A stretch of 64,000 nucleotides of DNA, taken from NCBI GenBank assembly GCA_964016885.1, contig OZ024740.1, positions 406,410,001 through 406,474,000 on the forward strand. The letters run 5' to 3'. Numbering within the stretch: the first letter of the stretch is position 1; each line of letters begins with the position of its first letter. Shown here piece after piece: positions 5,556 to 64,000 of this stretch. Source of the DNA: Eledone cirrhosa. Lineage: Eukaryota. The notes under the pieces are model-generated. The model was not told where the DNA came from, searched no databases, and worked only from the letters and a program-made list of their open reading frames with translations. Both the position numbers and the translations under genes were made by a program.

Positions 5556-6012
5556 TTCCCACTCTACTACCCTAAGTATTGAGTACTCTGGTGCGTTATG
5601 GTCCATTACCACAATTCCTTTGTTATGTATATATTTATGTATATATATATATATATATATATATATATATATATACATATTTACATACACATATATACAT
5701 ACCTACATATATATATATATATACATACATACATACACATATATACATACCTACATACACATATATACTTACATACACATATATACATACCTACATATAT
5801 ATACATACTTACATATATATACATACTTACATATATATACATACTTACATATATATACATACTTACATATATATACATACTTACATATATATACATACTT
5901 ACATATATATACATACTTACATACACATATATATATATATATATACACAAACATACATATATATACATACATGCATACATACATATATACATGCATGCAT
6001 ACATACATATAT

Positions 6013-6878
6013 AATGGCTGCCCCCTCGTTATCGAGTATGGCCATTGCACGAGGAGAGAAAAAAAAAAAATAATAATAATAATAAATAAATAAAAAATAA
6101 AATAAAAATAAAAAAAAAAGAAATATCTATATATCTATATATATATATATAGACATACACACATACATACACATATACACGCACACACACACACACATAC
6201 ATTAATAACAATAATAATAATAATAACAACAACAATAATAACGACAACAACAATAATAATATACATATACATATATATATACACACACACACATAAGCAT
6301 ATTTATACACACACACACACACGATAGCAACTAACAGCGCTGCGATCAAATGTGGCTTTTTAGCCCAGCCAATGATCTAAAATGTCTTGCACAGAGTCGG
6401 CAACCAAAACATTCACTGGGATAGTCGGCTGTGGTTGGAGTTCATGTACTTTTGCATGTCGCTTGAGCCCTCCTGCTGATTTACATTCTCTACCACATGT
6501 TTAGCAAGCATGATGAGTAGCATCTCCAACAGCAGCCTGGTAGTCAACCACTGGTCTTACTTTATGACTGCGAAGATGACTTTCGAGTCCAGCTTTGCTT
6601 AGGCAGAGTCTCGCACAGACGCTGCATGTCAGCACCATAGGAGGACCCTCGCCATCTGGAAGTGCAACAGCAATGTCCTTCCTCACATCCCGCTTTACTT
6701 TCTCGTATGCGATTCGAGATGCCTCAAAGGCAACTTTTCCCTCATATACAGTCTTTCTCCATTTATTACGATCAGCAGCAATATTTTCCCATGTATCAGC
6801 AGAGATGTTAGCGTCTTTCAGAGAGGCTTTCAAGGAATCCTTATACCTCTTTTTTGGTTTATGTGGCGGTCGTTTTCC
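6013..6878 (-). mobile_element. RTE family C, 5'-truncated (C2H2 fingers + 3' UTR)
   Basis: Encodes [17 protein letters not shown] and [21 protein letters not shown]; homologous to 56131-56905. Confidence 0.9.
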
Positions 6879-7122
6879 ATATATACATACATATATACAT
6901 GCATGCATACATACATACATACCTACATACATACATTTACGTATATATACATATATATGCATACATACATACATATACATACATATATGTATGTATATAT
7001 ACAAATATATATATACATACATATATACGTACATACATGTATATACATATATATATGTATATATACATATATATACATACATACATATATGTATATATAC
7101 ATATATATATACATACATATAT

Positions 7123-7736
7123 GATGGCTGCTCCCTCGTTATCGTGTATGGCCATTGCACGATATACCATTATAAATAATAATTAATTAATTCTATCGTG
7201 CAATGCCTGTGCGTGAAGATATTTTTTAAAGTGAGGAAAGACTGTGCACTGAGCCAATCCCACTCTCTGAACGACAGTAGCTATAACCCGAAAAGAAGAA
7301 AAGATGAACATCATCGGTAACTACTGAGCCGCAGGTTTTATATCGGAGTTATCCCAGTTTCCTGAGTTGCCTTCTCCTAGAAGAATGCCCTGAGAAAGGC
7401 TAGGGGTCCTTCACTCCCAGTGGTTTAACCGCGCGATCGGATGTCCAGCCCGACTATTTCTATGTCTCCGCGCATATACATACACGCATGCATATACACA
7501 TATACACACACATGTACATGTGTATATACATATTTACACACTTTTGGATGGCCGTTGACCCTTATGAGTTCTTCCGCCCTTTTGTCAGGTTTTGTTTTTT
7601 GTCCTGCAGGGTGTCCAAAATCACCCTCCCCACCAAGTAAACTTGGTGGGGTTGCCAGTTTAGTCGCTGACGACCTGACCATGCGACAGGTTGTACTGGG
7701 TTACATGTTACCAGTATCACTCAAGAGAGACCCGAC
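7123..7736 (-). mobile_element. Bipartite non-autonomous derivative of RTE family C (leader + internal microsatellite + 5' UTR + 3' tail)
   Basis: 7194-7473 matches the 5' UTR at 60028-60306. 7123-7164 matches the 3' end at 56131-56168. 7541-7736 is homologous to the leader of family D (18311-18462). Confidence 0.8.
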
Positions 7737-60306: not shown

Positions 60307-60723
60307 AAAAAAAAAAAAAAAAAAAAAAAAAATATATATATATATACATACATATATATATACATACATATATATATACATACATATATATATACATACA
60401 TATATATATACATACATACATACATATATACATACATACATACATACATACATACATATATATATACATACATACATATATATATACATACATACATACA
60501 TACATACATACATACATATATACATACATACATATATACATACATACATACATACATATATACATACATACATATATACATACATACATATATACATACA
60601 TACATATATACATATATATATACATATATATATACATACATACATATATACATACATATATATATACATACATACATATATACATATACATACATACATA
60701 TATATATATATATATATACATAT

Positions 60724-62435
60724 ATCATCATCAACGTTTAACGTCCGTGTTCCACGCTTGCATGGGTTTGACGGGGGTTTTCCCACTTGAGGCAAGAGTG
60801 ATTGTCATGCTCGCATAGGACTGTCTGGCAGGTTTTCTACAGTTGGATGCCCTTCCTAACACCAACCACATTTACAGTGTGGGTCTGGGAGGTTTTTACC
60901 GTGTTGCCTACACGGCCACATTACAGCGTGAAACTGTGTTTTTTTTCTCGTGACACCTACACGATTTCATTTGTTTCGGCCTGGATGGTGTGGCACCAAC
61001 ATAACTTTACATAGAAGAGGGCGGTGTGGATGGGGGGGGGGGGGGGGGTATTTTGTTAGAGATGCCTACTGACTGTAGTAGGTTTTACTTTGTATTTAGG
61101 TAAGGCGGGTCTTCTCTGTTACTGAGTACCGCCAAAGGTCTCGGTCCAGTGATATTGTCTTCGTGAGGTGTAAGTGTGTGAGGTCGGAGTTTATCAGCTC
61201 GTCCCAGGTTTTTCTTGGTCTGCCTATTCCATGGCTACCATCTATCTTCATTGCCCTGCACTTTGTTATACAGCTATCGTCCTTCATGCGCATCACGTGA
61301 CCGTACCAACGTAGCCTTCTCTCGAGTAAACAACATCTGAGTCGTCTTAGTTCTAATTTTTTCCTTAGTTCGTTTATGCTTTGCCGTTCACGTATATTAC
61401 TATTACACATCCAGCGGAGCATGCAAGCTTCGTTTCTCTCTAGTCTGCGTATATCCTCTGCACACAATGCCCAGGTCTCACTGCCATGCAACATTGCTGT
61501 TCGTATGCAGGCATCGTACAACCTGCCTTTCATTTATAGGGAGAACCCTTTAGCGGCTAATAGTGGTATAAGCTCTCTGAACTTTTTCCACCCAGTTCTG
61601 ACTCTAGCTACTGTACTTTCAGAGCACCCTCCCCCACTGCTGATTTTGTCACCCAGGTAACGGAAGCTGTCCACTATTTCTATAGAACCCTCTACGCAGT
61701 TGAAAGAGCTAGTATTTTGTTGGCACTTGCTGCTACTTATTGCCCCAGAACACCGGCCACATGTAAAATCTATGTTCTTAGTTAGCTTACCTGTGATCCC
61801 ACTACATCTTTTATGCACCCAAACTTTGCATTTGGGACACAAAATGGAATTTCTACCTACGCCTTTCCTACACTCTGCGCATGGCCACTTCCCGGAGGGG
61901 ACCGCCGCCTTATTTTCTTTCTTACAAACTAGAACTTTAGTCTTAGCCAGGTTAATTTTAAGGCCTTTTGATTCTAGGCCGTGCTTCCATGTTTGGAATT
62001 TCTTCTCTAGCTTGGCCATTAATTCAGCTATGAGCGTTAGATCATCTGCGTATAGGAGTTCCCATGGGCAGCCGGTCTTGAACTACACTGTTATAGCCTG
62101 GAGGGCAATAATAAATAGTAGGGGGCTAAGAACAGAGCCCTGATGAACACCAACTTTTACACTAAACTCTTCACTATATTCGTTGTTAATTCTAACCTTG
62201 CTGACTGTTTCTTTATACATGGCTTGTATAGCTCTCACAAGCCATTCATCAACACCTAGTTTTCTAAGAGCCCACCAGATAATGGAATGGGGGACTCTGT
62301 CGAAGGCTTTCTCCAAGTCGACAAAAGCTAAGTATAGGGGTTTACTTTTAGCTAGGTACTTCTCCTGTAGTTGTCGTACAATGAAAAGAGCGTCTGTGGT
62401 ACTTTTTCCTGACACAAACCCGAACTGCATTTCAT
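60724..62435 (-). mobile_element. RTE family A, 5'-truncated at EMQFGF, complete 3' UTR and (GAT)n tail
   Basis: Homologous to 20506-21890 and 51170-51568; contains a stop and a frameshift. Confidence 0.92.
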
Positions 62436-64000
62436 ATATATACATACATATACATACATATATATATATACATACATACATATATACATACATATATACA
62501 TACATACATATATATATACATACATATACATATATATACATACATATACATATATACATACATATATACATACATACATATATATATACATACATATACA
62601 TATATATACATACATATACATATACATATACATACATATACATATACATACATATACATACATATACATATTTATGCATATATATACATACATATATATA
62701 CATACATATACATATATATACATACATATACATACATATACATACATATATATACATACATATATATATATATATATATACATACATACATATATATAGA
62801 TACATACATATATATAGATACATACATATATATATACATACATACATACATATATATAGATACATACATATACATACATACATATAGATAGATACATACA
62901 TACATATATATAGATACATACATATACATACATACATATAGATACATACATACATATAGATACATACATACATATATATATACATACATATATACATACA
63001 TATATATACACATACATATATATACATACATATATATACACATACATATATATACATACATACATATACATACATATATATACATACATATATATACATA
63101 CATATATATATACATACATATATATATACATACATATATATACATACATATATATACATACATATATATACATACATATATATACATACATATATATACA
63201 TACATATATATACATACATACATATATATACATACATACATATATATACATACATATATATACATACATATATACATATATACATACATATATACATACA
63301 TACATATATACATACATACATATATACATACATACACATATATATATACATACATACATACATATACATATATACATACATACATATACATATATACATA
63401 CATACATATACATATATACATACATACATATATATACATACATACATACATATATATACATACATACATACATATATATACATACATACATACATATATA
63501 TACATACATACATACATATATATACATACATATATATATATATACATACATATATATATACATACATATATATATATACATACATATATATATATACCTA
63601 CATATATATATATACATACATATATATATATACCTACATATATATATATACATACATACATATATATATATACATACATATATACCTACATATATATATA
63701 TACATACATATATATATACATACATACATATATATACATACATATATATATATACATACATATATATATATATATACCTATATATATATATATACATACA
63801 TACATATATATACATACATACATATATATACATACATACATATACATACATACATATATATACATACATACATATATATACATACATACATATATATACA
63901 TACATACATACATATACATACATACATATATATACATACATATATATATATACATACATATATATATATACATATATATATATATACATACATACATACA

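What the first reader, a model, noticed from the sequence alone, without database searches (positions are those of the whole stretch)
5640..64000. Polarised (CATA)n/(TA)n array used as a shared, orientation-specific niche by several LINE clades
Seen: over more than 50 kb the microsatellite keeps C on the + strand regardless of the orientation of the inserts. All 9 RTE family C/D copies and both CR1/L2-like elements are on the - strand. All 4 R4 and both Tx1 copies are on the + strand, and only RTE A/B occur both ways. Some copies are duplicates, so the independent counts are lower. Known: R4-clade Dong/Rex6 and some Tx1 elements target microsatellites, and TRAS and SART enter (TTAGG)n in opposite orientations. 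Inference: one ancestral array was repeatedly split and re-expanded, forming an interstitial telomere-like retroelement hub in which each family reads the strand of the repeat.
Basis: partly seen in the sequence, partly recalled or inferred. Interest (0 to 1): 0.75.

Follow-up and report, generated by a model that had tools for sequence, protein, structure and literature searches.

The report
Strand-specific RTE insertion into (ATGT)n microsatellites
In a genome that is likely an octopod's, a long one-directional CATA/TA repeat is packed with retrotransposons, and one RTE-type family sits in a fixed orientation and register in this repeat here and in many reads from another sample, which would be unusual because RTE elements are described as not sequence-specific; the other families here are either too few to judge or go in both ways.

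Summary
Observation largely right: 28 array blocks hold 2090 ACAT against 32 ATGT, all 9 C/D copies are on -, all 4 R4-like and both Tx1-like on +, RTE A/B both ways. But the array is broken by a reversed block, 2 kb of other DNA and an N gap, and a 5-kb block is duplicated across the gap, so independent counts are 8, 3 and 1. 'D' is not a truncated LINE but a ~610-bp bipartite non-autonomous RTE. Raw reads of another sample show D joined in register to (ATGT)n at its 3' end (23,691 reads) and its full-length 5' end (7,764 reads), so its strand rule is not local; the RAD library favours microsatellite neighbours but not one polarity. RTE B shows no such flank. R4-like junctions are precise (3 of 3) but were not tested outside the window; CR1 and Tx1 counts say nothing. 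No telomeric feature. Likely mechanism: TpA nicking plus pairing of an (AUGU)n RNA tail with the CATA strand. Microsatellite targeting is known for R1, Tx1, R4 and NeSL-like elements; I found no report for RTE. New variant of a known kind.

The parts
5626..44020 (+). compound (CATA)n/(TA)n array blocks with C on +, first contig, interleaved with inserts
46577..64000 (+). same array, same polarity, after the N gap; runs off the window
44021..44290 (.). foldback of array sequence; first half has opposite (G on +) polarity
44290..46576 (.). non-array DNA followed by a 200-N gap (46377-46576)
56130..60307 (-). RTE family C, full length: 405-nt 5' UTR, APE + RT + three C2H2 fingers in three frames, microsatellite-rich 3' UTR; poly(T) upstream on its own strand
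9360..10907 (-). RTE C, 5'-truncated
6008..6878 (-). RTE C, 5'-truncated
7123..7474 (-). short bipartite derivative of C (5' UTR 92% like C + 3' tip)
17895..18464 (-). D3, bipartite non-autonomous RTE (5' UTR about 69% like C's, last zinc finger, 3' tip)
8088..8547 (-). D1
11269..11587 (-). D2
41076..41526 (-). D4, likely a local duplicate of D5
43515..44020 (-). D5; its 5' flank is the reversed block
7542..7732 (-). D6, older fragment holding the full-length 5' end of D
12848..15426 (+). RLE-type (R4/Dong-like) LINE, 5'-truncated: RT, CCHC knuckle, PD-(D/E)xK-like domain
23296..23828 (+). R4-like 3' fragment
52863..53395 (+). duplicate of 23296-23828
53885..54266 (+). R4-like 3' fragment, independent 5' end
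21935..22941 (+). L1/Tx1-like 3' fragment (zf-RVT, A-rich end)
51689..52701 (+). duplicate of the L1/Tx1-like fragment
24301..29302 (-). CR1-group LINE, two open ORFs (398 and 1045 aa), tandem-repeat tail
29767..32485 (-). second CR1-group family, 5'-truncated, (GTAAAAGA)n tail; CCTA array variant on both sides
18934..21895 (+). RTE A (APE, RT, PHD insert), 3' UTR cut
34629..37471 (+). RTE A
48279..51568 (+). duplicate of RTE A at 18934 with whole 3' UTR and (GAT)n tail
60726..62433 (-). RTE A in the other orientation
54579..55614 (+). RTE B
8583..9320 (-). RTE B-like 3' part
7741..7908 (-). RTE B-like 3' tip (control junction)

Best explanation
A one-polarity (CATA)n/(TA)n array is filled with non-LTR elements, and the RTE family C and its non-autonomous relative D lie with the ATGT strand as their own strand (for D also in reads of another sample), likely because target-primed reverse transcription starts at a TpA nick on the CATA strand and an (AUGU)n end of the element RNA pairs with that strand. 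Shown: polarity, orientations, D's bipartite build, D joined in register to (ATGT)n at both ends in raw reads. Inferred: D is moved by the protein of a C-like sister LINE; nicks fall at TpA on both strands, so the duplication is whole ATGT units; the RNA tail comes from read-through of master copies that already sit in the repeat, which makes the rule self-reinforcing. The R4-like family likely targets the same repeat from the other strand with its restriction-like endonuclease. RTE A/B enter TA steps either way. The pile-up likely grows by feedback: each insertion leaves target on both sides, and slippage and unequal exchange lengthen and duplicate it.
For: Window: 8 of 8 independent C/D events on -, with array on both sides. 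Run X14: loose ends before 8091 (D 3' junction) 23,691 reads, consensus (CATA)n over 30 letters, agreement 0.86 (depth at 8124 is 55,022); loose ends behind 7720 (full-length 5' end) 7,764 reads, 14 element letters then ACATACATACATACAT, 0.77. If all disagreement came from the opposite polarity, 0.86 means at least 72% CATA polarity; a 50:50 mix gives 0.75. Read-majority letters match the window's other D copies at 9 of 11 listed sites in every copy that covers them, one copy differing at each of the other two sites plus one more at a third, so it is the same family. RTE B 3' junction at 7753 shows a (CAT)n tail then AT-rich non-array DNA in X14 (4,204 reads) and in X5 contigs (319). R4-like: 3 of 3 independent 3' junctions read AAAA|CATA and 3 of 3 5' junctions CATAC|. 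PMC6007223 (passages) proposes that the 3' microsatellite of RTE RNA steers the nick or the priming.
Against: The RNA end was not seen. D's fixed end (CCAT) matches the CATA strand better than the ATGT strand, so plain 2-3-base microhomology predicts the wrong strand; a longer read-through tail has to be assumed. Only 3 of 9 C/D 3' junctions in the window start ATGT; the rest start with AT repeats. X14 is one RAD run; its ends suggest SphI + MluCI (inferred), which enriches D copies next to decayed CATA/TATG repeats and depletes RTE B copies inside arrays, so the share of copies in microsatellites and the control are biased; the number of loci behind the reads is not given. The three contig runs list no loose end at D's junctions. 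C, R4-like, CR1-group and Tx1-like flanks were not measured outside the window. D5's 5' flank has the opposite polarity. Dialect test negative.
Confidence: 0.55

Rival explanations
1. The C-family protein itself (APE domain, perhaps helped by the three C-terminal C2H2 fingers) recognises the CATA strand, as R1 and Tx1 endonucleases recognise their targets; the RNA tail is secondary.
For: In-register junctions at both ends of D; D's fixed 3' end predicts the other strand; C has three C2H2 fingers that A/B lack.
Against: The fingers are family-wide (many of the 120 listed homologues carry them) and their helix positions are small residues (S, A/G, G, S/R; read), poor base readers by general knowledge. 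No insertion seen in the C endonuclease against A's in a pairwise alignment (29% identity; a weak test). Literature passages name only R1 and Tx1 as site-specific APE clades.
Confidence: 0.25
2. The elements seed the repeat: (ATGT)n is only D/C's own tail, arrays grew from tails and neighbouring copies, and polarity follows from chains of same-direction copies rather than from target choice.
For: RTE tails are known sources of microsatellites (PMC2887409 passages); array dialects differ across inserts; RAD bias could overstate repeat at the 5' side.
Against: Full-length D has (ATGT)n directly at its 5' end in 7,764 reads; in the window the 5' flank of 8 of 9 C/D copies is array of that polarity, usually followed by a different family; polarity holds beside R4, CR1 and RTE A copies in either orientation.
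Confidence: 0.1
3. The pattern is duplication, haplotype double-counting and noisy assembly of a few insertions.
For: 5-kb block repeated across the gap at 0.2-0.7% mismatches with excess indels; D4/D5 near-identical; foldback and garbled sequence near the gap.
Against: Eight C/D events with different 5' ends remain; reads of an independent sample show the same D junctions. It explains the Tx1 pair, one R4 and one D, not the rule.
Confidence: 0.05
4. One reading: every clade here reads a strand of the repeat and the locus is a telomere-like hub with a role of its own.
For: All non-A/B families are single-oriented in the window; R4-like and C/D take opposite strands.
Against: n = 1 per family for CR1-group and Tx1; A/B go both ways; no telomeric repeats; TE-dense 100-kb windows are common in Octopus vulgaris (288 hotspots, PMC13282606).
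Confidence: 0.15

Closest known systems
Waldo (R1 clade; ACAY microsatellites), with Mino (AC), Kibi (TC), Koshi (TTC), Dong (TAA), Togen (TG)
   Same: Non-LTR elements that insert into a microsatellite; ACAT is the same repeat as CATA (PMC3812793 and PMC4640811 passages).
   Different: Those belong to R1, Tx1, R4 or NeSL-like lineages. Here the clearest case is an RTE-type family, and several clades share one array.
Bipartite non-autonomous RTE LINEs (Bov-A, RTESINE1/2, MAR4_MD, WALLSI3)
   Same: 5' UTR part joined to the 3' end of an RTE, no ORF (PMC5786205 passages).
   Different: No sequence-specific target is described for them in the passages seen; D keeps the last zinc-finger codons.
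RTE-2_OV of Octopus vulgaris (PMC9115989)
   Same: Single ORF with EN, RT and C2H2 finger; microsatellite starting at the ORF end fills the 3' UTR.
   Different: C is not that family: six published primers match the window with 3-6 mismatches at best. No target analysis in the passages seen.
RTE insertion signature of Nishiyama and Ohshima 2018 (PMC6007223)
   Same: 3' microsatellite of the RNA proposed to steer nick or priming; a T run lies just upstream of the full-length C copy.
   Different: They report a weak T-stretch signature and 1-2-base overlap, not in-register insertion into a tetranucleotide repeat.
TRAS/SART in (TTAGG)n (recalled, not from a call)
   Same: Two families using opposite strands of one repeat.
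   Different: Telomeric, both R1 clade; here interstitial as far as the window shows, and RTE versus RLE-type.

Membership tests
Microsatellite-targeting non-LTR retrotransposon (family D) | [quoted passage not shown] | tested here: met
   window 5 of 5 D copies with array on both sides (one 5' flank reversed); X14 loose ends at both ends
Microsatellite-targeting non-LTR retrotransposon (family D) | fixed orientation and register in the repeat | tested here: met
   CATA consensus in phase at 8091 and 7720
Microsatellite-targeting non-LTR retrotransposon (family D) | most copies genome-wide lie in the target | tested here: inconclusive
   one RAD run whose enzymes likely favour repeat neighbours; no genome held
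Microsatellite-targeting non-LTR retrotransposon (family D) | endonuclease cleaves the target specifically | not testable with these tools
   needs a nicking assay
RTE clade (family C) | single ORF with APE then RT, no ORF1, microsatellite 3' end | tested here: met
   405-nt UTR then APE-RT-C2H2; full-length homologue P0121 one ORF of 1185 aa
RTE clade (family C) | RT phylogeny with named RTE references | not tested
   no named reference among hits; label rests on architecture
Bipartite non-autonomous RTE (family D) | 5' UTR-derived part plus 3' end of an RTE, no coding capacity, no small-RNA head | tested here: met
   about 69% to C 5' UTR, zinc-finger tail, stops in all frames; no Rfam hit on D
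R4/Dong clade | RT + CCHC knuckle + C-terminal restriction-like endonuclease, no APE | tested here: met
   best PDB matches are R2 proteins
R4/Dong clade | RT phylogeny separating R4 from Hero, NeSL, R2 | not tested
   no named references; 7 longer homologues show no N-terminal C2H2 in Pfam, which fits R4 by recall only
R4/Dong clade | precise insertion into one microsatellite | tested here: inconclusive
   3 of 3 independent junctions identical in the window; not tested elsewhere
Tx1 clade | site-specific L1-group element by RT/EN phylogeny | not tested
   only a 3' fragment, one independent copy
Telomere-like retroelement array (TRAS/SART, HeT-A/TART) | telomeric repeat target or chromosome-end position | tested here: not met
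   0 tandem TTAGGG or TTAGG in the window; position on the chromosome unknown

The most novel reading that the evidence does not exclude
An RTE lineage of octopods, sister to the brain-expressed RTE-2_OV, has become a true site-specific retrotransposon for (ATGT)n, a third APE clade beside R1 and Tx1 to do so, and shares the repeat with a Dong-like element that takes the opposite strand, so that the commonest tetranucleotide arrays of these genomes are partitioned, self-growing retroelement niches.
Probability: 0.35. Interest if true: 0.78.

Novelty: new variant of a known kind. Interest (0 to 1): 0.58.

Why it matters
Reviews seen here limit site-specific APE elements to R1 and Tx1 and call RTE insertion non-specific. 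A natural RTE with a strict repeat target, beside sister families without one, would make it testable whether the RNA tail or the endonuclease sets LINE specificity, a point that also bears on RTE-based gene writers, now listed as random integrators. It would also mean that short-read calls of LINE activity in octopus miss insertions that land in unmappable arrays; the very low Dong count in PMC9115989 may be such a case (my inference).

Tried and rejected
No genome is held, so no genome-wide table. Junction motifs: 0 hits in metagenome contigs and viral contigs; 20 hits of a degenerate 19-mer in prokaryote genomes were taken as chance and not read. Array dialect test across inserts: no signal (15 inserts p 0.34; 12 without duplicates p 0.40; three short-flank copies left out). 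Rfam: nothing at gathering score in the window; below it only repeat-driven miRNA matches and a weak tRNA match on the SINE at 8008-8071; no ribozyme found at the 5' ends, although D's first 146 nt fold well (z -3.3). PDB: no match for the C endonuclease. C = RTE-2_OV rejected. The transcriptome supplements of PMC9115989 were not held as text (84 and 93 characters; files 6-8 not searched), so RNA 3' ends could not be read. Earlier scan notes: 3 look-ups, nothing. Zinc fingers as target readers considered and ranked low.
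Full report
Source. No genome is held. The nearest named homologue of the RLE-type protein is from Argonauta hians (64% identity), and R4-Dong is described as almost confined to cephalopods among molluscs (PMC10294476, passages). I therefore infer an octopod genome; nothing depends on the species.

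Observation. Between 5626 and 64000, 28 array blocks (about 19.7 kb) hold 2090 ACAT and 32 ATGT words; 26 retroelement pieces cover 36.1 of 58.4 kb. Three corrections. First, the array is not continuous: 44021-44160 has reversed polarity and folds back on 44161-44290, 44290-46376 is other DNA, and a 200-N gap follows. Second, the block RTE A, Tx1-like, R4-like at 18934-23828 recurs at 48279-53395 with the same truncation points and 20, 2 and 1 mismatches but many indels: a second haplotype or a very recent duplication; D4 and D5 are likewise near-copies. Independent counts are C/D 8 of 8 (p 0.008), R4-like 3 of 3 (p 0.25), CR1-group 1 + 1, Tx1-like 1. Third, 'family D' is not a 5'-truncated LINE: it is about 610 bp made of a 5' part about 69% like the 5' UTR of full-length C, the codons of a last zinc finger and the 3' tip, with stops in all frames. 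That is a bipartite non-autonomous RTE, a known class (PMC5786205, passages). 7123-7474 is a second such derivative, of C itself.

Families. C is a single-ORF APE-RT-C2H2 element built like RTE-2_OV (PMC9115989, passages) but not that family. A/B are APE-RT elements with a PHD insert and a (GAT)n tail. The R4-like element has RT, a CCHC knuckle and a C-terminal PD-(D/E)xK-like domain, with R2 proteins as best PDB matches. Clade names (RTE, R4, Tx1, CR1) rest on architecture and recall; no tree with named references was made.

Test outside the window. I laid 4 of the 16 listed runs on 7105-8900, which holds both ends of D and an RTE B 3' end. In raw run X14 the letters beyond D's 3' junction (8091) form a 30-letter (CATA)n consensus in 23,691 reads at 0.86 agreement; depth at 8124 is 55,022, and part of the rest are likely mates that barely reach the junction. 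Beyond the full-length 5' end (7720), 7,764 reads give 14 element letters and then ACATACATACATACAT at 0.77. On D's own strand this is (ATGT)n | D | (ATGT)n, in register. A pure 50:50 mix of polarities would give 0.75 agreement, and 0.86 needs at least 72% of one polarity; compound arrays like the window's give a (TA)n consensus at any mix. For the 5' end only a plurality can be claimed. The reads are of the same family as the window's D copies. The RTE B junction (7753) shows its tail and then AT-rich, non-array DNA in X14 (4,204 reads) and in X5 contigs (319). Against this: molecule ends fall on AATT and on near-GCATGC sites, so I infer an SphI + MluCI library. SphI sites arise in decayed CATA/TATG repeats (three such in the window), which favours D copies beside repeats, though not one polarity, as the site is a palindrome; B copies inside arrays are disfavoured because they need an AATT in the flank. 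The number of loci is not given, only six loose ends per run are shown (4633 more were not), the three contig runs list none at D's junctions, and C's flank is not resolved by this call. So strand and register for D are supported; the share of copies in repeats is open.

Junctions in the window. All three independent R4-like copies end AAAA|CATA and begin after CATAC|, two with an AC microhomology, as expected for a site-specific RLE element. C/D 3' junctions all begin AT; 3 of 9 begin ATGT. A/B join at AT in both directions. CR1b's tail overlaps the target by GTA, which only the ATGT strand offers; CR1a's by TA, which both offer. D's fixed end would pair better with the CATA strand, so short microhomology alone does not give the strand seen.

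Mechanism. I commit to TpA nicking plus RNA-target pairing: master copies inside (ATGT)n are likely transcribed with (AUGU)n ends, which can prime only on the nicked CATA strand; a second TpA nick gives in-register 5' junctions. This needs no new enzyme specificity and extends a model in PMC6007223 (passages). The rival is an endonuclease that reads the strand. Neither step was observed. The hub likely grows by feedback and array-mediated duplication; shared polarity fits one founding array, but dialects are not conserved across inserts, so arrays were likely remodelled after insertion.

Comparison. Microsatellite targeting is known for Waldo (ACAY, the same repeat), Mino, Kibi, Koshi, Dong and Togen (PMC3812793, PMC4640811, passages). 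Passages state that among APE clades only R1 and Tx1 hold site-specific LINEs and that RTE sites do not appear sequence-specific (PMC2887409). The 2026 O. vulgaris repeat annotation reports recently active RTE, Dong-R4, CR1 and Tx1 families and 288 TE hotspots but, in parts 1-2 of 3 of the text and a search of its supplement, no target analysis. Searches of an open-access library gave no report of an (ATGT)n-specific RTE or of target choice by octopus LINEs; Repbase notes, subscription papers and the Zenodo library were not visible and may hold it. PMC13708176 and PMC5678591 were seen as passages, PMC13295347 as a listing only. TRAS/SART is recalled.

Verdict. The locus is real in outline and partly double-counted. 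The general claim for all clades and the telomere analogy are not supported; the narrower claim, strand- and register-specific insertion of an RTE-derived family into (ATGT)n with an R4-like family likely on the opposite strand, has support from an independent sample. New variant of a known kind; interest 0.58.

Noticed in passing
window 5448-5555 and 11021-11152: Two unrelated hairpin elements (46-nt and 60-nt arms, 98% and 92% complementary) sitting in TA/CATA runs; MITE- or HINE-like; the second splits the array at the 5' end of a C copy.
   Followed up: partly
window 18934-23828 vs 48279-53395: If these are two haplotypes, the sequence after the shared block differs wholly (CR1a, CR1b, RTE A, D versus R4, RTE B, C, RTE A), a strikingly polymorphic array. 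In the first copy the RTE A 3' UTR and the array before the Tx1-like piece are replaced by about 40 bp.
   Followed up: partly
window 44021-44290: Near-perfect foldback of array sequence at the 5' end of D5, the only polarity switch; real inversion or read artefact.
   Followed up: partly
window 24301-29302: CR1-group element with two open ORFs; ORF1 has a glutamine run and two CCCH-like motifs; 5' UTR has a 230-270-bp tandem duplication.
   Followed up: no
window 18934-21845, 54580-55602: RTE A/B proteins carry a PHD finger right after the RT core.
   Followed up: no
window 60308-60332: 26-nt T run on the element strand directly upstream of full-length C, recalling the T-stretch signature of RTE insertions (PMC6007223).
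   Followed up: no
window 7909-8078: tRNA-headed SINE on - next to the 3' end of D1 (weak tRNA match; very deep in all four runs).
   Followed up: no
window 37472-38447: Garbled TA/GTA-rich stretch that looks like uncorrected long-read sequence.
   Followed up: no
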